From a virus (lineage: Duplodnaviria; Heunggongvirae; Uroviricota; Caudoviricetes), in the IMG/VR virus record IMGVR_UViG_2718218397_000005: 47,888 nt of DNA; one strand, given 5' to 3'. The notes under the pieces are model-generated. The model worked only from the letters and a program-made list of their open reading frames with translations, ran no database searches and had not been told where the DNA came from. Each line of letters starts with the position of its first letter. Position 1 is the first letter of the stretch. Of the stretch, positions 1,581-35,142 are shown in pieces. Both the position numbers and the translations under genes were made by a program.

Positions 1581-4546
1581 TATGCAAGCCTCACAATATA
1601 GTTAAATGCGATGTTTTTGACGGTGTTTTCCGCGTTACCAGCAGCGTTAACGGTGATGGTGTGTCCATGTGAACCAATCGCAACGGAGTGCGTATGAGCA
1701 CCAATACCGACAGTATGCGCGTGTGCACCTGCAGATGCTGCTGTGCCGGACAGTGAATGGCTATGATTACCATCTGTACTGGTATTCGCTAACCACCCCG
1801 TAGACATACCTACTGAGCCTTGTACACCCCAGGTATTTTGACCTGAGCTTGTATAACCATATTGATAAGTATCTTTAAAAACACTGGGGTTAAATCGACG
1901 GCCATCTCTATGGCTGTGATTACCAGCTGCATTCGTGCTGCCACTTAAACTATGGGTATGCGCACCAGTGTTATTCGTGGATTTAGTGCCGTAATCAAAC
2001 GACGATGTGGTTTTCGTCCCCAAATCCGTACTGGATGCGCTGGCGCTGTGGGTATGCGATTTAATGCCGTCCTGTTCCTGAGACAATACGGCCCGACCAC
2101 TGGCAGGTTTGCCCTTAATCGTCCAGCCACGCATATCAGGGATCACGCCTGACGGATAAGCGGCTGCAAGTTTCGGGTATGCAGATTTGTCAAAAGTCTG
2201 CCCCTGCATCAGGGCATAGCCAGACGGAACGGTATCTGATGGCCACGGGATTGGTGCGCCAGGCGGATAAAACTGCTCTGATGGCGTATAGAGTGAATAA
2301 ACTGTACCGTCCGTTAACCCTTCCGGCTTATTAGCAGAATATGCTGGTGACGTATGAATCGTCACGCTGGCATTACTGGTATAATCCCATTGAATATTTA
2401 CACCAGTCGCATAATTTCCGATTGCAACGTAAATATCGTAAGTATCACCAGATGTATTGACCCAGGCAAAATTTGTAAACCCTGTCGATGTGCGCTGCCA
2501 TAACGCACCAGTAATCCCCTTCGGATTACCATTACCTGCACGTAAAACAAGTTCAGATATACCTGCCTGTTGAGGTGACCCCACGTTAAATCCAGCGCCA
2601 CCAATCAACGTAATTGAAACAACAGAACTCGCCTGTGGCATGGTTACCGTTGCTAATTTGAACCAACCAGCACCACCGCTGAATGACATTGTTGTTGAGT
2701 TAAGCGTACCAATATCTTTCGGCGTCAGTGTTATATCCGCTGAAAGCGCCTTACCATTCACCTTACGGGCAGAAGGTACCCGACCATTCGCATTGTCATT
2801 AGCTGCTTTCACTGCTTTCGGTGTCGCAGCAAGCGTTTCAGATGTGCTGTTGGTTGCACTACTGAGCTGGACAATTCCTTTTTGTGCTGTCGTAGCGTCC
2901 TGTGCGGTGTATTTCCCGTTAGCCAGGTCATACGCGGCCTTAACGGCTTTTGGCGTTGCCGCCTGTGACTCGGAAGTGCTGTTAGTCGCACTGCTGAGCT
3001 GAACTATCCCTTTCTGTGCTGTCGTTGCATCCTGTGCGGTGTATTTCCCGTTAGCCAGGTCATTCGCGGCCTTAACGGCTTTTGGCGTTGCCGCCTGTGA
3101 CTCGGAAGTGCTGTTGGTCGCACTGCTGAGCTGTACTATCCCCTTTTTCGTCGTGCTCGCATCCTCAAGCGCCACGGCGGATGCAATATCCTCTGCCCGT
3201 TTTGCTGCTGTCTCGGCGCGCGTTGCCGCGGATTCCGCCGTACTTTTGCTCTGTGCTGCCGCTGCCGCACTGCCAGCAGCCTCTGTCGCCTTCGTGGATG
3301 CCGTCGTGGCGCTGCCCCTCGCTGCTGACGCCTGTCTGGTCGCCTCATCTTTTGAAGCAGACGCAGATGATGCCGATGACGCCGCCGAACTGGCGGACGA
3401 TGCGGCAGCCGTTTTTGAGGATTCTGCGCTGGTTTCCGACGCTTTCGCGTTCGTTTCGGATGTCTTCGCTGCGGAAGCAGACCTCGCTGCTGCGCTGGCC
3501 TGTTCAGTGGCTTCGCCAGCCTTCGTTGTGGCTGTTGAAGCGGATGATGCGGCGCTTTCTGCCGATTTTCCGGCGGCGGTGGCACTGACTGCTGCCTCCT
3601 CTGCCTTAATGGACGCCTCACGGGCCGATGATGCAGCTGCTGTCTCAGAGTCTGCCGCAGCTGAGGCGCTCTGTTCCGCTGCCGTTTCAGAAGACCTGGC
3701 ATTCGTCTCGGACGTTTTTGCCGCCTTCACGGAATTTCCTGCCGCCGTTGCCGAGGAGGCTGCACTGCTGGCGCTTGTGGAGGCGTTCGTTTCTGATGAT
3801 TTTGCCGCCTCTTTGGAGGCCGCCGCATCTCTGGCTGAAGTGGCGGCTTCTGACGCTTTCGTCGTCGCAGTGGATGCAGAAGTGGCTGCTGATTTTTGTG
3901 ACGCTGCAGCATTCGTTTCTGACGTTTTCGCCGCACCGGCACTGGTGGCCGCCGCGCTTTTTGAGGACTCTGCAGCGGCAGCACTTTTTGATGCTTCAGT
4001 GGCCTTTGTTGATGCCGTTCCTGCGCTGGAAGACGCCTCCTGAGCCGAAGTCGCGGCCTGTCCGGCTGACGTGCTGGCTGCACGCGCTGAGCCTGCAGCA
4101 TCAGTCGCATGGGTTGCCGCCTCACGGGCAGATGTGCCGGCATCACTGGCTGACTTCTTCGCGGCTGCCGTGTTCTGTGCCACCGCGGACGCGTTACGCG
4201 TCACCTCTTCCACCATCAGTTCAAAACGGCGCAGAGCCTCCGGACGGGCATCATCCTCCGTCATGGCACCGAGAAAATCATTCAGCGTACCGGGTCGGGA
4301 ATCTTCATACACGGTGATGGTCCCGGCATGTGACGGCGGGAATCCTTCCACCAACAGAATAACGCTGTACTGACCGTACTCAACGTCCATGCTGTAACGC
4401 CCGGCTTCATCCGGATTTTCTGAGGCCAGCGTGTTCACCACCACCGTGGTGCTGTTACGTTTTGCTTTCAGCTGGATTGTGCAGTTCTGTACCGGTTTTC
4501 CTGTGCCGTCTTTCAGTACACCTGAAATCTTTACTGCCATATTCAC
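1580..4546 (-). CDS. stf: Side tail fiber protein
   Basis: 988-aa ORF; N-terminus [26 protein letters not shown]... is lambda Stf-like; long Ala/Ser/Thr-rich region; three ~44-aa tandem repeats; His-rich C-terminal region (HTHS/HSHS). Confidence 0.85.
2785..3180. repeat. Tandem ~132-bp direct repeats (3 copies) inside stf
   Basis: Near-identical 132-bp units at 2917-3048 and 3049-3180 with a more divergent copy at 2785-2916; encode repeated [42 protein letters not shown]. Confidence 0.8.
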
Positions 4547-29743: not shown

Positions 29744-31048
<1,305 letters not shown>

Positions 31049-31063
31049 CCACTACAGTAGCCA

Positions 31064-31519
31064 TTACGCCTCCTGCTTGTCGCGGAGCAGCTGGAACTCG
31101 CAGCTCTGCGGAATAGTCAGGTGGCAGCCAATATTCACCGCCCAGGCTTCAACCTTACACAGGAAGACATACATCTCTCCGGTATCAAGATCGGAGGTAT
31201 GGCGTAACGACTGGATAGTGGTGATATCACCGGTTACGACATCAACCAGGTCTTTGGTTTCATAACCGAGATATGTGTGTTTGAGAGCATCTTTTACCCA
31301 AGCTGGAGTAGCGAACGTTTTACCCCTGCTGATGAGGTATTCACTGATTTCGCTGTACCACATGTGGCTGAGTGCATTCTGGGAAAGACTGCGTTTCTCA
31401 CGCCACGGTTTAAGCACCATGCGAAAGCATTTGCCCTCCTCCAGATAAGGCTGGATCTGCCGACCGATAGCGGTGAAGTTACCGCGATGTAATTTGATGC
31501 CATCTTGTGGGAGATTCAC
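31064..31519 (-). CDS. ybcN: Nin-region protein YbcN-like
   Basis: 151-aa ORF (GTG start) [55 protein letters not shown]... Confidence 0.75.
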
Positions 31520-31706
31520 GCTTCACCTCCGCAGAGGTCAAACGCTGGATACAATATATCGCAGGTGCATTTCTGCATCTGTGGAGGGAGAAGAGAGTTT
31601 GGATTGTGTGTGCGCATAAACGTCCCCGTTTAGCGCAGAAGTCACCGGAGTTGTTCAGGCTCCGATGACATGATTATGGCGAGTTGATTATCGCAAATCA
31701 AAGGTT

Positions 31707-32063
31707 TTAATTGTGCTTTATTCCTTCAAGCGTTGCCTTCATACCAACCAAAGAAATGTTTAGCTCTCCAACTTTCTCAGGGCTATATAATTCAGAATGA
31801 AGCCAATATTCTGATTTATCTAAACATCTTTTAGCCAGCTCTCGATCAAAGTCTACGACTTGGGAAGACGCTTCATACCAAAGCCTATAAAGTTTTTCTT
31901 CTTCGTTTGGGTTATTAGGCTCACCACGTTTTAATTTTTCAGTATATAAAATTGTTGAATAAATCGCAGGAGTTAATCCAGTGATTGCCCTCTGCCGCAG
32001 ATCGGATTTGTTTGTTATCCACCCCAACAGACGATCTCCCATCCATGTGATAATTGTATCCAT
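31707..32063 (-). CDS. Hypothetical protein, no recognisable family (accessory)
   Basis: 118-aa ORF MDTIITWMGDRLLGWITNKSDLRQRAITGLTPAIYSTILYTEK...; AT-rich codon usage unlike neighbouring phage core genes. Confidence 0.5.
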   Translation of the reverse strand: MDTIITWMGDRLLGWITNKSDLRQRAITGLTPAIYSTILYTEKLKRGEPNNPNEEEKLYRLWYEASSQVVDFDRELAKRCLDKSEYWLHSELYSPEKVGELNISLVGMKATLEGIKHN

Positions 32064-32524
32064 GCTTTAGCCCTTCTTAGTAAATAGTGTGTAGGGCGAC
32101 TGAAGGACCGAGTTTATGCTTTTTCGCATTGCTTTCAGTTAGTACACCGGTATCGCACCGGAAACAATCCTACGGCAAATTGGTTGTCTGACCTCTCGGT
32201 TTTTCGTGCATTAACCGATACCCACTACAGTCTCGGCGAAAGCTGCACACCCCCAGGGTGTACTGGTAGCACTCGGCACAGCCTAGCACGCCACTTTCTT
32301 CTCACTATCCAGTCTAATTTTATCCCCTAGTCAGACACTCAGATGTAGTGCTCCGCAGCGGCATGCGGGGGAATACAAAAACTCGGACAAAATTGGGCCC
32401 TCCTTTTTGAATCACTCGCGGGGATGTAGTTATTAATACATGGAAAAAGATCTGTTTTCAAATCCAACATTATATGGTTTCAATACCACGGGGTGGCTAT
32501 GTGTTTCTCATTGTTAATTGGAAT

Positions 32525-32848
32525 CTACTGTAATCGATCCGAACGTAAATGCGGCAAAACTCGACTCCACTTATCATCCTGCCACGGCCGGAATTTTACA
32601 TGTGCCGTTTCTCTGGCAAGGATTGCCTGTGCCTTATTGAGTATCTGGGGATATTCTTGCTCGATAGAAGTGAAGCGACCAGCTTCACGATGCTCCGCAA
32701 CCTGAAGAAGAGGAGTAACGTTCTGGTAGGTAATTAACATCACATTCCCTGCTCGCCATAACCAGGCGAGTGTGCAAAGTTCGTTATCAGTGAATTGTTT
32801 TGTGATTGGGTATTGTTGAACTGCTAGAACGAGAACGCCAGCATCCAT
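32525..32848 (-). CDS. Hypothetical protein, no recognisable family (accessory)
   Basis: 107-aa ORF MDAGVLVLAVQQYPITKQFTDNELCTLAWLWRAGNVMLITYQNV...; possible -10 TATAAT upstream on the minus strand. Confidence 0.5.
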   Translation of the reverse strand: MDAGVLVLAVQQYPITKQFTDNELCTLAWLWRAGNVMLITYQNVTPLLQVAEHREAGRFTSIEQEYPQILNKAQAILARETAHVKFRPWQDDKWSRVLPHLRSDRLQ

Positions 32849-32959
32849 TGGCAGTCTCTATAGTAAAACCATAGCTCAGGACGCTTCGTTCAGGATAGAT
32901 AATTTTATTGTACTTACCTAACTTTCTTATTATAGCACGGTTGAAAAAGTGATTATTAC

Positions 32960-34486
32960 TCAAAAATAAACCTCACCATCAACCATATATTTGAGAGTAC
33001 TTATCGCCTGCTGGGCGGATATTGTTTTCATTAAAGGATAGTGTTTAAAAACAATGCCATTCATAAAATAGATATCACAGGTTTTATTATCTGTATTGAT
33101 TATGATTTTTTCGAATGTTTTATAGGCAAGTGTACGACATAGCTCTCGCCCATTTTTACTGGTTAAGTCAATAGCATGAAAATCACCAAGTGAACTCACC
33201 GCTTTACTCTTCAAAGTTTTTAATGATACAGAAGCCCTTCGTAATTCCTTATCTAATACTCTGATTTTTTCTGCTATAGCGGTAACTTCAGGCGCAACAG
33301 ATAATGCAGCAATTAAATTATTAATTTTCATCTGGAGCTCAATAATTTTCAACTCTAAAGTTTCATTAGCATCTTTCTTGTTTTCAACTGGTTGGATTTT
33401 ACTACAATTAAAAAGCAACTCATTAATGATATTATAATCAACCAAATCTCTCTTTATTGATGGCCTGTCACATCGATGCAGTCTTCTCATCGGACAAACA
33501 TAATAGCCATGCAAACTTCCAGATACCGCATGAACAATCATGGTATTACCACAAGCCTCGCACTTCATAACTGTTCGAAGTAGATTTATCAACATAGGAT
33601 TTTTGCTACTATTGCTAATACCAAAAGGTGCCAACCGAATTTCCTGTACAGCGTAAAACAAATCATCTGATATGACTCTGGGATAATAGCCAGCGATTTC
33701 ACTTATTCCTTTACCTCTTGCACGATATGAAGGTACGCATATACCTATCAGAGCTTTATTCGCTAATAATTTTTCAATTACAGAAGGTCCCCATGCACTT
33801 TCTTTTCCTGAGAAATTCTTTACAGCATGATCATTTAAATACTTGGCTATTGCATTCAATGAGCGCCTTTCCATCCTGAGTTTAAAAATTAGCTCAATAG
33901 TTTTCACCCTGTCGGGGTCTGGAACAAAAGCCGTTCTTTTGTCATCTAAGGAGAGCCATCTCGGACAAGACGCCGTCATAATCGTACCTGATTCCAGTGC
34001 ATCCTGCCGTTTTTTCTTCCATGATAATTTAACCCGACTTGACTTTATCTCGCTTTCTTCATTTGCCCTTTGTGCTATAAGTATGGCTTTTATTAATGAA
34101 TATGGCTCATTCAAAGAGTCAATATTATAGACTGTATTGTCGCAAAGAGTTATAACATCAATACCGTGATTCAAAATCAATTTCAGACGTTCAATCGCTT
34201 CACCGACTTTTTCTCTTGAAAGTCTGTCCAGACTTTCAACTAACAATGTAGTTCCTGGCAATATATAACCATGCTCTATAGCATCTAAAAATTCCGAAAA
34301 AGCTCCTGATTGTGCATGCTTTCCTTTGAATGCACTTAATCCTAAATCTTCATATGTTATGGTATCAAGATAATAATCACTATTTACCTTTAACCATTCA
34401 GCAATAAGTCTTCTCTGTCGGTTTAATGAGTCGCCAGACATCTGACCTGGTGATGAAAATCGCATATATGCTATGGCTTTTTTCAT
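32960..34486 (-). CDS. ybcK: Large serine recombinase (YbcK-like)
   Basis: 508-aa ORF; N-terminal resolvase catalytic domain (AIAYMRFSSPGQ..), recombinase domain, zinc-ribbon (CEACGNTMIVH...YYVCPMRRLHRCDRP), C-terminal coiled coil; AT-rich. Confidence 0.8.
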   Translation of the reverse strand: MKKAIAYMRFSSPGQMSGDSLNRQRRLIAEWLKVNSDYYLDTITYEDLGLSAFKGKHAQSGAFSEFLDAIEHGYILPGTTLLVESLDRLSREKVGEAIERLKLILNHGIDVITLCDNTVYNIDSLNEPYSLIKAILIAQRANEESEIKSSRVKLSWKKKRQDALESGTIMTASCPRWLSLDDKRTAFVPDPDRVKTIELIFKLRMERRSLNAIAKYLNDHAVKNFSGKESAWGPSVIEKLLANKALIGICVPSYRARGKGISEIAGYYPRVISDDLFYAVQEIRLAPFGISNSSKNPMLINLLRTVMKCEACGNTMIVHAVSGSLHGYYVCPMRRLHRCDRPSIKRDLVDYNIINELLFNCSKIQPVENKKDANETLELKIIELQMKINNLIAALSVAPEVTAIAEKIRVLDKELRRASVSLKTLKSKAVSSLGDFHAIDLTSKNGRELCRTLAYKTFEKIIINTDNKTCDIYFMNGIVFKHYPLMKTISAQQAISTLKYMVDGEVYF

Positions 34487-34680
34487 GGTGACACCTGCTA
34501 ACGTATGCTTTTATAAACCTTAGTGGTGGGATATAATTTTTGTTTAATTTTTATTTAAAAAGACAATTAAGGTCACATTATCTTGAATATACAACAATAA
34601 TCGTATTGCAATTTTCTTACGCCATAATCTTGAAAGCACAAAAGAATACATAAAAAAATAAAGACATTAACAAAAAGCAT

Positions 34681-34711
34681 AAAACGAGGCTCATATAAAT
34701 ATAAGAGCCTC
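34681..34711 (-). terminator. Rho-independent terminator downstream of emrE
   Basis: Stem GAGGCTC (34686-34692) / GAGCCTC (34705-34711), AT-rich loop, followed on the minus strand by GTTTT. Confidence 0.55.
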
Positions 34712-34742
34712 CATATTTTAGTCGTTTAGAAACAAATTATTT

Positions 34743-35075
34743 TTAATGTGGTGTGCTTCGTGACAATAAATTAATAACCAACACACCGGCACAAATCAAC
34801 ATCATGCCTATAATGGCTGGCAGGTCCAGCCGTTGGCCGAAAAGTCCCCATGACAGTAAGCTAATCAGGACAATACCGACTCCTGACCAGATAGCATAAG
34901 CAATCCCTGTAGGAATATAAGCCAGCGTCTGAGCTAATAACCAGAATGATGCACAATAACAAATAATTGTACCAACAGATGGCCATAACCGTGTAAAACC
35001 TTCTGAAAACTTCATTAAGGTTGTACCAATGACCTCTGCAAGTATTGCACCACCAAGATAAATATAAGGGTTCAT
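34743..35075 (-). CDS. emrE: Small multidrug resistance (SMR) efflux transporter EmrE
   Basis: ORF 34743-35129; probable start MNPYIYLGGAILAEVIGTTLMKFSEGFTRLWPS... (110 aa), four TM helices, conserved Glu14. Confidence 0.9.
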   Translation of the reverse strand: MNPYIYLGGAILAEVIGTTLMKFSEGFTRLWPSVGTIICYCASFWLLAQTLAYIPTGIAYAIWSGVGIVLISLLSWGLFGQRLDLPAIIGMMLICAGVLVINLLSRSTPH

Positions 35076-35142
35076 AGAATATTCTTTCCTGTTCAAACTG
35101 GAGAGAATTGTACTACAGTTTGAACTCAACTCACCTGTTTCA

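What the first reader, a model, noticed from the sequence alone, without database searches (positions are those of the whole stretch)
31520..32959. Variable accessory segment between ybcN and the serine recombinase holds two unrecognised small proteins
Between the nin-region gene ybcN and the large serine recombinase, where K-12 DLP12 carries ybcL/ybcM/ylcH as I recall, this element has different content: two minus-strand ORFs of 118 aa and 107 aa with AT-rich codon usage and no motifs I can place. Variable cargo slots inside otherwise conserved prophage backbones are common sites for defence, anti-defence or toxin genes.
Basis: partly seen in the sequence, partly recalled or inferred. Interest (0 to 1): 0.55.

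Follow-up and report, generated by a model that had tools for sequence, protein, structure and literature searches.

The report
Hidden structured RNA in prophage cargo slot
The supposedly protein-only gap in this E. coli prophage holds a dead fragment of an antirepressor gene, a real but uncharacterised small protein, and between them a 331-base, intricately folded RNA that matches no catalogued RNA family and sits where related prophages carry anti-phage defence genes.

Summary
Both ORFs exist as described, and K-12 does carry ybcL/ybcM in their place (ylcH is retained here). The 107-aa ORF is recognisable. It is the C-terminal P22AR_C half of a 202-aa Bro-N/P22AR_C "Rha" antirepressor-type gene, cut off where the emrE-ybcK module joins, and it shows relaxed constraint. 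It is a remnant.

The 118-aa ORF is a genuine gene (dN/dS 0.07-0.25). It is predicted to be a four-helix bundle and has no Pfam, PDB or PADLOC match. It belongs to a wider family of about 350 clusters, some of whose members fuse this domain to a TIR domain or to transmembrane segments.

The main result lies in the 461-nt "intergenic" gap. It contains a 331-nt RNA (32095-32425, minus strand) with strong covariation, a candidate pseudoknot, constant length and no open frame. It gave no Rfam hit even at E<=10, was unannotated in every one of the 60 records listed out of 158 E. coli genomes that carry it, and is absent from the searchable literature.

The RNA always lies 31-54 nt upstream of one of several unrelated small proteins, usually with an intrinsic terminator between them. 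The RNA-ORF118 unit is conserved across genera. The same slot carries BstA in another strain, and a related phage without ybcK carries PD-Lambda-1 between ren and rha.

Function is inferred. The best fit is an RNA-led accessory (conflict-type) cassette.

The parts
31516..31617 (-). ylcH homologue (33 aa) overlapping the ybcN start; the conserved downstream boundary of the variable slot
   Evidence: RefSeq CDS on identical DNA. Homology to K-12, PhiR26_1 and IdasGreatGrand resumes at 31702-31705. A second ylcH-like copy lies upstream of rha in L003 and L004.
31707..32063 (-). ORF118: real protein-coding gene; predicted four-helix-bundle protein of unknown function (phrog_12412)
32064..32094 (-). 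31-nt spacer with a Shine-Dalgarno-like GAAGGG 7 nt before the ORF118 ATG; it sits where other variants of the RNA carry an intrinsic terminator
   Evidence: Sequence read directly; comparison of variants.
32095..32425 (-). 331-nt structured non-coding RNA (candidate new family): 18 helices plus a candidate 6-bp pseudoknot
   Evidence: Covariance model R1 gives 373.8 bits, E 3e-114, a single copy in the window. 97.7% of cells paired against 34-47% in slid controls; 18 pairs with compensatory changes against 3-7. Pseudoknot pairs 100% paired, with one compensatory change. All six frames are closed in at least some variants, indels break frame, and there is no 3-nt periodicity. No Rfam match at E<=10.
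32433..32461 (-). Promoter-like element TTGAAA-17 nt-TATTAA ending 7 nt before the RNA 5' end (uncertain)
   Evidence: The geometry is conserved in all clades (TTGAAA/TTGTAT, 17 nt, TTTAAT/TTAAAT/TTATAT) by inspection. It fails the tool's sigma-70 criteria.
32525..32848 (-). ORF107 = dRha: the C-terminal P22AR_C half of a Bro-N/P22AR_C antirepressor-type gene; truncated remnant
   Evidence: Pfam P22_AR_C 1.1e-15. PHROG anti-repressor Ant families. Intact 202-aa homologues in IdasGreatGrand and PhiR26_1 carry Bro-N plus P22AR_C. DNA homology begins at 32835, i.e. codon 5. Omega is 0.25-0.33 against 0.07 between intact copies.
32849..32959 (-). Junction sequence downstream of the ybcK stop; it travels with the ybcK module
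   Evidence: Not homologous to K-12 beyond 32951 nor to IdasGreatGrand before 32835. Found at >=95% identity in 347 E. coli genomes, and at 85% downstream of ybcK in a strain with different cargo.
32960..34486 (-). ybcK large serine recombinase (context; upstream boundary of the slot)
   Evidence: Pfam Resolvase, Recombinase and Zn_ribbon_recom; RefSeq ybcK.

Best explanation
The interval is a mosaic accessory slot in the early-right operon of a DLP12-type lambdoid (pro)phage. It holds three unrelated items. (1) ORF107 is an inert remnant: the C-terminal domain of a Bro-N/P22AR_C 'Rha' antirepressor-type gene whose 5' half was lost where the emrE-ylcJ-ybcK module joins. (2) A 331-nt, multi-helix RNA with a candidate pseudoknot. 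(3) ORF118, a small four-helix-bundle protein whose start codon lies 31 nt after the RNA's 3' end. Items 2 and 3 form one cassette. The RNA serves as the structured leader or partner of the downstream small protein, and the pair is an accessory module of the phage-host/phage-phage conflict type (toxin-antitoxin-like, abortive-infection-like or counter-defence). Shown: the anatomy, the truncation, purifying selection on ORF118, the RNA's structure and non-coding nature, its fixed position upstream of small accessory genes, and the defence cargo in the same slot of relatives. Inferred: transcription of the RNA, any RNA-protein interaction, and the biological role.
For: ORF107 remnant. ORF118 is a real gene: conserved at 118 aa down to 51% identity, omega 0.07-0.25, confident helical model. 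RNA: conserved at 77-83% identity among E. coli, Klebsiella and metagenomic prophages with different neighbours. Its length is 329-331 nt in all 30 full-length unique variants. Covariation is far above the slid and shuffled controls. It is non-coding. It has one CM hit in the window and none in K-12 DLP12 or PhiR26_1. Coupling: in nearly all of 36 distinct flank contexts (two exceptions listed under evidence against), the next start codon is 31-54 nt after the RNA. The downstream gene belongs to one of five unrelated small-protein families: ORF118, a 178-aa 2-TM protein, a 183-aa protein with an Rx4H-like motif, a 177-aa protein and a 95-aa protein. Most contexts whose partner is not ORF118 have an intrinsic terminator in that spacer. 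Every ORF118 homologue of >=69% identity tested (E. coli, Enterobacter bugandensis, Obesumbacterium proteus, two IMG/VR prophages) is preceded by the RNA at the same spacing, although the outer flanks differ. The RNA-183aa unit is likewise shared by Klebsiella, E. coli and Citrobacter. Slot context: BstA occupies the same position in another strain, and PD-Lambda-1 lies between ren and rha in a related phage. Remote ORF118-family members fuse the domain to TIR (PADLOC ThsB/SAVED-TIR hits) or to 1-4 C-terminal TM segments (11 of the 148 representatives examined). Precedent for a prophage ncRNA acting in cis and in trans on the downstream Abi toxin: RCd22-AbiF (PMC12373285).
Against: One conserved RNA paired with five unrelated proteins is hard to reconcile with a specific RNA-protein partnership. 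ORF118 homologues of <=51% identity (L031-L039, L151) and distant members of the 183-aa family (Pantoea, Superficieibacter) lack the RNA, so neither protein needs it. In about 55 E. coli genomes ORF118 is truncated to 60-66 aa while the RNA stays 98-99% identical. Two contexts (L048, L117) have the RNA and its terminator but no close-coupled small gene. The putative promoter fails standard sigma-70 criteria. There are no expression data. ORF118 has no PADLOC, Pfam or PDB relative, and its fold match is generic. Tight spacing is normal in phage genomes and may simply reflect packing.
Confidence: 0.45

Rival explanations
1. The RNA is an autonomous 'RNA moron': a self-contained, trans-acting structured RNA gene with its own promoter and terminator, inserted between backbone genes and expressed from the prophage. 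ORF118 is an unrelated early accessory gene that happens to lie next to it through mosaic recombination.
For: The RNA keeps its sequence while both neighbours change. It stands alone before backbone genes in L048 and L117. A terminator follows 3-5 nt after the core in most variants. ORF118 and the 183-aa family exist without it. The RNA is retained where ORF118 is truncated. Many invariant unpaired nucleotides and a candidate pseudoknot suggest a tertiary fold that binds a factor rather than a simple leader.
Against: The RNA-ORF118 junction has no terminator and is conserved across three genera while synonymous sites in ORF118 are saturated. The downstream gene is almost always a small non-backbone protein starting 31-54 nt away. 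The promoter is sub-consensus.
Confidence: 0.3
2. One reading: both small ORFs are functional cargo proteins (defence, anti-defence or toxin), with ORF107 working as a stand-alone P22AR_C-domain protein.
For: ORF107 keeps an open frame with an ATG and is annotated in RefSeq. It has its own PHROG, phrog_7640. Its omega of 0.25-0.33 is still below 1. The ybcK-dRha junction is common, at >=95% identity in 347 genomes. The slot carries defence genes in relatives.
Against: The first four codons come from junction DNA and the Bro-N domain is missing. Constraint is 3-4-fold weaker than between intact copies. There is only a weak ribosome-binding sequence (by eye). No PADLOC hit. Copies are nearly identical, so the open frame may simply be young.
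Confidence: 0.1
3. The conserved 331-nt element acts at the DNA level (a recombination, replication or protein-binding site) or is an unrecognised protein-coding gene on either strand.
For: ORFs of 100-179 aa are open on the opposite strand in some variants. It lies next to a serine recombinase in the window.
Against: Each frame is closed in at least some variants. There are 1- and 2-nt indels and no codon periodicity. Compensatory changes keep 97-98% of pairs intact, which a double-stranded DNA site would not require. Many pairs are G-U on this strand. Most copies have no recombinase nearby.
Confidence: 0.05

Closest known systems
Rha/Ant-type antirepressor proteins (Bro-N + P22AR_C), e.g. 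the 202-aa 'Rha protein' of Escherichia phages PhiR26_1 and IdasGreatGrand
   Same: ORF107 aligns to residues ~100-202 of these proteins at 80-85% identity and matches Pfam P22_AR_C.
   Different: The N-terminal Bro-N domain and the native start are missing. Four junction-derived codons replace them, and constraint is relaxed. It is a fragment, not a member with the family's architecture.
Type III toxin-antitoxin / Abi modules with an upstream RNA (ToxIN; prophage AbiF with ncRNA RCd22, PMC12373285)
   Same: An RNA gene lies directly upstream of a small protein gene on the same strand, in a prophage accessory region. Most variants have an intrinsic terminator between RNA and ORF.
   Different: The RNA is a single 331-nt complex fold, not tandem repeats or short abiF motifs, and has no Rfam match. 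The window copy has no terminator before ORF118. The partners are five unrelated proteins, none matching ToxN or Abi_2 models. No toxicity data exist.
Morons and defence hotspots of lambdoid prophages (BstA; PD-Lambda-1)
   Same: The position is the same: BstA replaces RNA+ORF118 between dRha and ylcH in strain AR Bank #0349, and PD-Lambda-1 sits between ren and rha in PhiR26_1. The cassette is absent from otherwise collinear relatives.
   Different: Neither ORF118 nor the RNA resembles any catalogued defence component. The main product here is an RNA.
Orphan large structured RNAs associated with phages (ROOL, GOLLD; from my own knowledge, both are in Rfam)
   Same: A long, multi-helix RNA with conserved unpaired nucleotides, located in prophages, function unknown.
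   Different: No similarity to any Rfam model at E<=10. It is smaller (331 nt), found in Enterobacteriaceae lambdoid prophages, and tightly coupled to a downstream small ORF.
K-12 DLP12 ybcL-ybcM cargo
   Same: Same slot, bounded by ybcK and ylcH-ybcN.
   Different: No sequence relationship; homology breaks at 32951 and 31702.

Membership tests
Bro-N/P22AR_C antirepressor-type (Rha/Ant) proteins - ORF107 | C-terminal P22AR_C domain | tested here: met
   Pfam PF10548, E 1.1e-15, residues 15-85.
Bro-N/P22AR_C antirepressor-type (Rha/Ant) proteins - ORF107 | N-terminal DNA-binding domain (Bro-N) and full length of about 200 aa | tested here: not met
   Intact homologues have Bro-N at residues 17-100. 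ORF107 starts at the equivalent of residue ~100, and DNA homology begins at codon 5.
Catalogued anti-phage defence systems (PADLOC-DB 2.0) - ORF118, ORF107, ybcK | Profile match to a defence-system component | tested here: not met
   No family at E<=1. As a positive control, BstA and PD-Lambda-1 were detected in the same slot of relatives.
Any Rfam 15 RNA family - the 331-nt RNA | Covariance-model match | tested here: not met
   No match at E<=1 over 4.5 kb or at E<=10 over 441 nt. No tRNA or tmRNA found.
Type III toxin-antitoxin (ToxIN-like) | RNA gene immediately upstream of the protein gene on the same strand | tested here: met
   The RNA 3' end is 31 nt before the ORF118 ATG, and 31-54 nt before the start codon in nearly all of 36 contexts.
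Type III toxin-antitoxin (ToxIN-like) | Antitoxin RNA built of tandem direct repeats processed by the toxin | tested here: not met
   No direct repeats inside 32095-32425. The RNA is a single complex fold.
Type III toxin-antitoxin (ToxIN-like) | Terminator between RNA and toxin gene | tested here: not met
   Absent in the window and in all ORF118-linked copies. Present in most copies linked to other proteins.
Type III toxin-antitoxin (ToxIN-like) | Protein is toxic and is neutralised by the RNA | not testable with these tools
   Needs expression and rescue experiments.
Riboswitch / cis-regulatory leader | A consistent functional class of downstream genes | tested here: not met
   Five unrelated downstream protein families.
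Moron (autonomous transcription unit inserted in a phage operon) | Own promoter | tested here: inconclusive
   TTGAAA-17-T(A/T)T(T/A)A(A/T) is conserved by eye, but the scans found no site meeting sigma-70 criteria.
Moron (autonomous transcription unit inserted in a phage operon) | Present or absent between otherwise collinear backbone genes | tested here: met
   Absent from K-12 DLP12, PhiR26_1, L138 and L139.
HPt / CheA-P1 phosphotransfer four-helix bundles - ORF118 | Four-helix-bundle fold | tested here: met
   [not shown]
HPt / CheA-P1 phosphotransfer four-helix bundles - ORF118 | Conserved phospho-accepting histidine | tested here: not met
   Family-wide invariant residues are T37, W62, K83 and W87; no histidine is conserved.
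HEPN RNases - ORF118 | Rx4-6H motif | tested here: not met
   No such conserved motif in alignments A1-A3.
PHROG phrog_12412 - ORF118 | Full-length profile match | tested here: met
   E 4.9e-71, residues 1-118 of 118; the family has no known function.

The most novel reading that the evidence does not exclude
The 331-nt RNA defines a new class of RNA-gated conflict module in lambdoid prophage hotspots. One conserved, tertiary-folded RNA acts as a common sensor, antitoxin or antitermination leader. It controls interchangeable small effectors: the ORF118 four-helix bundle (whose relatives are fused to TIR or membrane-spanning domains), a 2-TM protein, an Rx4H-motif protein and others. This would resemble the way retrons or CBASS combine a constant sensing part with variable effectors.
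Probability: 0.2. Interest if true: 0.85.

Novelty: new variant of a known kind. Interest (0 to 1): 0.66.

Why it matters
E. coli prophages are among the most closely read DNA there is. Even so, a 331-nt RNA with a complex, covariation-supported fold sits unannotated in about 3% of complete E. coli genomes, in Klebsiella, Citrobacter, Enterobacter and Obesumbacterium prophages, and in plaque-forming phages. It matches no Rfam family. Large structured RNAs of unknown function are rare, and those studied have often turned out to be ribozymes, ribonucleoprotein scaffolds or regulators.

This RNA lies in a slot that elsewhere holds BstA, and a related phage has PD-Lambda-1 in the corresponding region. 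It is always followed by a small orphan protein. That makes a directly testable candidate for an RNA-based component of phage-host or phage-phage conflict.

The work also has practical lessons. It shows that 'P22AR C-terminal domain-containing protein' annotations next to ybcK are gene fragments. It also shows that ORF118 belongs to an unnamed domain family that recurs fused to TIR and membrane modules.

Tried and rejected
- Pfam, NCBIfam, PADLOC and PDB sequence searches for ORF118 and its 75-member alignment gave nothing.
- The search for related loci with the broad alignment failed because it had no conserved stretch. The genome-contig scan with A3 confirmed no relative of ORF118.
- The genome-contig scan with an RNA motif gave one chance hit inside a dapB-like coding region.
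- Literature searches by sequence strings, by topic and by phage names found nothing relevant. The Pas sRNA preprint concerns other, small RNAs.
- An obligatory link between the RNA and ORF118 or the 183-aa family was rejected, because distant homologues lack the RNA.
- A coding reading of the RNA on either strand was rejected.
- No inverted or direct repeats suggest an att site for ybcK at the junction.
Full report
**Setting.** The window is a DLP12-type lambdoid (pro)phage whose early-right operon runs on the minus strand. In transcription order it reads: replication gene P, a ren-like gene, emrE, ylcJ, ybcK (large serine recombinase, 32960-34486), the finding's interval, ylcH (31516-31617), ybcN (31064-31519), an IS3 copy, ybcO, rusA and quuD. 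The identical 1440 bp occurs in 94 of 5426 complete E. coli genomes. It also occurs in the plaque-forming phage Turner, which matches the window at 98.7% from P to ybcN.

**Observation.** Both ORFs are present as described. K-12 carries ybcL, ybcM and ylcH between ybcK and ybcN. Homology to K-12 ends at 32951 and resumes at 31702, so ylcH is retained and only ybcL/ybcM are replaced. GC is 0.39-0.41 over ORF118 and 0.45-0.46 over ORF107.

**ORF107 is a gene fragment.**
- It matches Pfam P22_AR_C (E 1.1e-15) and PHROG anti-repressor families.
- Phages IdasGreatGrand and PhiR26_1 carry a 202-aa gene at the same place, annotated 'Rha protein' in PhiR26_1 and 'hypothetical protein' in IdasGreatGrand. 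Its C-terminal 103 residues are 80-85% identical to ORF107. The IdasGreatGrand copy was scanned and has Bro-N plus P22AR_C.
- DNA homology to these phages starts at window 32835, which is codon 5 of ORF107. The N-terminal domain and native start were therefore lost at the junction with the ybcK module.
- dN/dS of ORF107 against the intact genes is 0.25-0.33. The same segment compared between the two intact genes gives 0.07. This fits relaxed constraint.
- The ybcK-dRha junction is widespread, at >=95% identity in 347 genomes. It is followed by different cargo in different strains.

**ORF118 is a real but uncharacterised gene.**
- It matches only PHROG families of unknown function, chiefly phrog_12412.
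- Close homologues keep exactly 118 aa down to 51% identity. dN/dS is 0.07-0.25 with synonymous sites near saturation.
- A full HMMER scan of 1.84 billion representatives with the family profile found 351 clusters at E<=0.001. Of the 148 listed representatives I examined, 114 are stand-alone proteins of <=140 aa and 23 are longer than 180 aa.
- Among the longer ones, the domain is N-terminal to a TIR domain in P0073 (Pfam TIR_2 at 3.8e-18; PADLOC ThsB/SAVED-TIR hits). It is N-terminal to a PDC-S60-like region in P0054. It is followed by 1-4 C-terminal transmembrane segments in 11 proteins.
- None of 75 members hits a common Pfam family, and the profile hits nothing in the PDB.
- Homologues of 43-50% identity sit in early operons of other prophages, next to RecT and orphan Dam, Dcm or MT-A70 methylases.

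**The 'spacer' is a structured RNA.**
- The 461 nt between the two ORFs (32064-32524) is unannotated in RefSeq but conserved independently of its neighbours. It is 95-96% identical in genomes where a VasI-like gene replaces rha. It is 83% identical in E. coli 3426 and 78% in Klebsiella phage Kp4856-1, each with different genes on both sides.
- Motif scans and nhmmer recovered 125 copies (41 unique) from IMG/VR, metagenomes and genomes. All 30 full-length unique variants are 329-331 nt.
- RNAalifold on 23 distinct sequences predicts 84 pairs. On that structure, 97.7% of cells are standard pairs against 34-47% when partners are slid by 1-3 columns. Eighteen pairs show compensatory double changes against 3-7 in the slid controls. 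The covariation score is 0.224 against 0.044-0.064. No shuffle out of 500 reached the observed values for four of the five measures.
- A 6-bp long-range pairing (GUCUGA.../...UCAGAC) is 100% maintained. One compensatory C-G to U-A change in the most divergent clade favours this pairing over a competing local hairpin. I treat this pseudoknot as a candidate only.
- The element is not coding. Each of the six frames is closed in at least some variants, there are 1- and 2-nt indels, and variable columns show no 3-nt periodicity.
- A covariance model built from the alignment finds one copy in the window, at 32095-32425 on the minus strand (373.8 bits). It finds none in K-12 DLP12, PhiR26_1 or the other slot variants.
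- Rfam 15 gives no match at E<=1 over 4.5 kb or at E<=10 over the element alone. ARAGORN finds nothing. No searchable paper contains its sequence.
- In E. coli it is present once in each of 158 of 5426 complete genomes, and it is unannotated in all 60 records listed.

**Ends of the RNA.**
- Conservation starts abruptly at ATCCCC (32425).
- Upstream, all clades keep TTGAAA (or TTGTAT), a 17-nt spacer, an A/T-rich hexamer and 6-7 nt before the RNA start. The hexamer is sub-consensus and the promoter scan does not call it. An own promoter is therefore plausible but unproven.
- Downstream, most variants have a strong intrinsic terminator 3-5 nt after the core, for example L095 11318-11335.
- In the window and in every ORF118-linked copy the terminator is replaced by a 31-nt spacer carrying the ORF118 ribosome-binding sequence.

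**Relation between the RNA and its downstream gene.**
- In nearly all of 36 distinct flank contexts, the next start codon is 31-54 nt after the RNA. It belongs to one of five unrelated small proteins: ORF118, a 178-aa protein with N- and C-terminal TM segments, a 183-aa protein with an invariant RLRHNLLHANKYE motif, a 177-aa protein and a 95-aa protein.
- Two contexts (L048, L117) have the RNA and terminator followed only by a more distant ORF, NinB-like in L048.
- All ORF118 homologues of >=69% identity that I examined carry the RNA at the same spacing with different outer flanks. These are E. coli, two IMG/VR prophages, Enterobacter bugandensis and Obesumbacterium proteus. Homologues of <=51% identity do not carry it.
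- The 183-aa family behaves the same way. The RNA is present in Klebsiella, E. coli and Citrobacter, and absent in Superficieibacter and Pantoea.
- In about 55 E. coli genomes ORF118 is truncated to 60-66 aa while the RNA remains 98-99% identical.
- The RNA and its downstream gene thus travel as a unit over moderate evolutionary distances, but neither partner strictly needs the other.

**The slot.** With ybcK upstream, the position before ylcH-ybcN carries different cargo in related elements:
- ybcL+ybcM in K-12;
- dRha plus BstA (PADLOC 3.6e-121) in AR Bank #0349;
- a reverse-strand BD-FAE hydrolase in KC-Dl-1.

Without ybcK, the corresponding ren-to-ylcH interval holds:
- PD-Lambda-1 (PADLOC 1.9e-198) followed by rha and a 169-aa ORF in PhiR26_1;
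- a VasI-like gene plus the RNA plus truncated ORF118 in strain 204446.

**Interpretation.**
- I am confident of the anatomy: a remnant, an RNA and a real small gene.
- For function I favour an RNA-led accessory cassette, in which the RNA is the structured leader or partner of the downstream small protein and the pair serves phage-host or phage-phage conflict (confidence 0.45). The grounds are the fixed close coupling, the terminator architecture in sister cassettes, the cross-genus conservation of the units, the hotspot location, the TIR and TM fusions of ORF118 relatives, and the precedent of prophage AbiF with its cis- and trans-acting ncRNA RCd22 (PMC12373285).
- The main rival (0.3) is that the RNA is an autonomous trans-acting 'RNA moron' and its adjacency to ORF118 is mosaic chance.
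- The data do not decide between the two. Transcript mapping and toxicity/rescue tests would.

**Limits.**
- There are no expression data.
- The promoter is uncertain.
- The pseudoknot rests on one compensatory event.
- The sequences are phylogenetically related, so shuffle controls overstate significance. The slid controls are the fairer comparison and are still far below the observed values.
- Rfam and open-access literature being negative does not prove the RNA has never been described.

Noticed in passing
window 29799-31056: A 1258-bp IS3-family element (orfA/orfB on the plus strand) is inserted between ybcN and ybcO, where relatives carry ninE. Phage Turner and K-12 are continuous across this point.
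   Followed up: partly
window 31540-31676; L003 3657-3794; L004 3700-3803: The ylcH-containing ~105-138-bp stretch just upstream of ybcN has a second copy (82-88% identity) upstream of rha in IdasGreatGrand and PhiR26_1. Direct repeats therefore flank the rha-RNA-ORF118 cassette there. They may act as a recombination linker for cassette exchange.
   Followed up: no
window ~32340-32400 (minus strand, inside the RNA 5' domain): A perfect Shine-Dalgarno sequence (AAGGAGG), then 7 nt, then TTG opens a 19-codon mini-ORF ((M)SEFLYSPACRCGALHLSV). It ends at the UGA inside the pseudoknot strand GUCUGAC. It is present in most variants and frameshifted in the L118 clade. Nucleotides are invariant at all codon positions, so the constraint is at RNA level. 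I read this by eye.
   Followed up: partly
L028 4371-5627 (equivalent to window ~32435): One IMG/VR prophage has a 1.25-kb insertion exactly at the putative -10/-35 region of the RNA, which replaces the upstream promoter-like sequence.
   Followed up: no
[not shown]
   Followed up: partly
L095 11366-11902; L118 8432-8968: A 178-aa protein with N- and C-terminal transmembrane segments is the commonest non-ORF118 partner downstream of the RNA terminator. It has no family match.
   Followed up: partly
L139 3634-4563 (E. coli AR Bank #0349); L004 1889-3391 (phage PhiR26_1): Known defence genes occupy the same slot in relatives. BstA lies directly after the same dRha fragment, and PD-Lambda-1 lies between ren and rha.
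   Followed up: yes
L041 ~3950-4170, and about 55 E. coli genomes: ORF118 is truncated to 60-66 aa (phrog_8527-type) by an internal deletion or frameshift, while the upstream RNA stays 98-99% identical.
   Followed up: partly
window 32960-35129: The emrE-ylcJ-ybcK block is markedly AT-rich (GC 0.27-0.43) compared with the flanking phage backbone (about 0.50-0.57 on the P/ren side and 0.48-0.50 at ybcN). The plaque-forming phage Turner carries it, so an efflux-pump gene and a large serine recombinase travel on an active phage.
   Followed up: no
P0073, P0054, P0066, P0074, P0082, P0097, P0107, P0116, P0122 (remote ORF118 relatives): The ORF118-type four-helix domain recurs at the N-terminus of proteins with TIR, PDC-S60-like or multi-TM C-terminal modules. 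It is an unnamed domain family that appears linked to conflict systems.
   Followed up: partly
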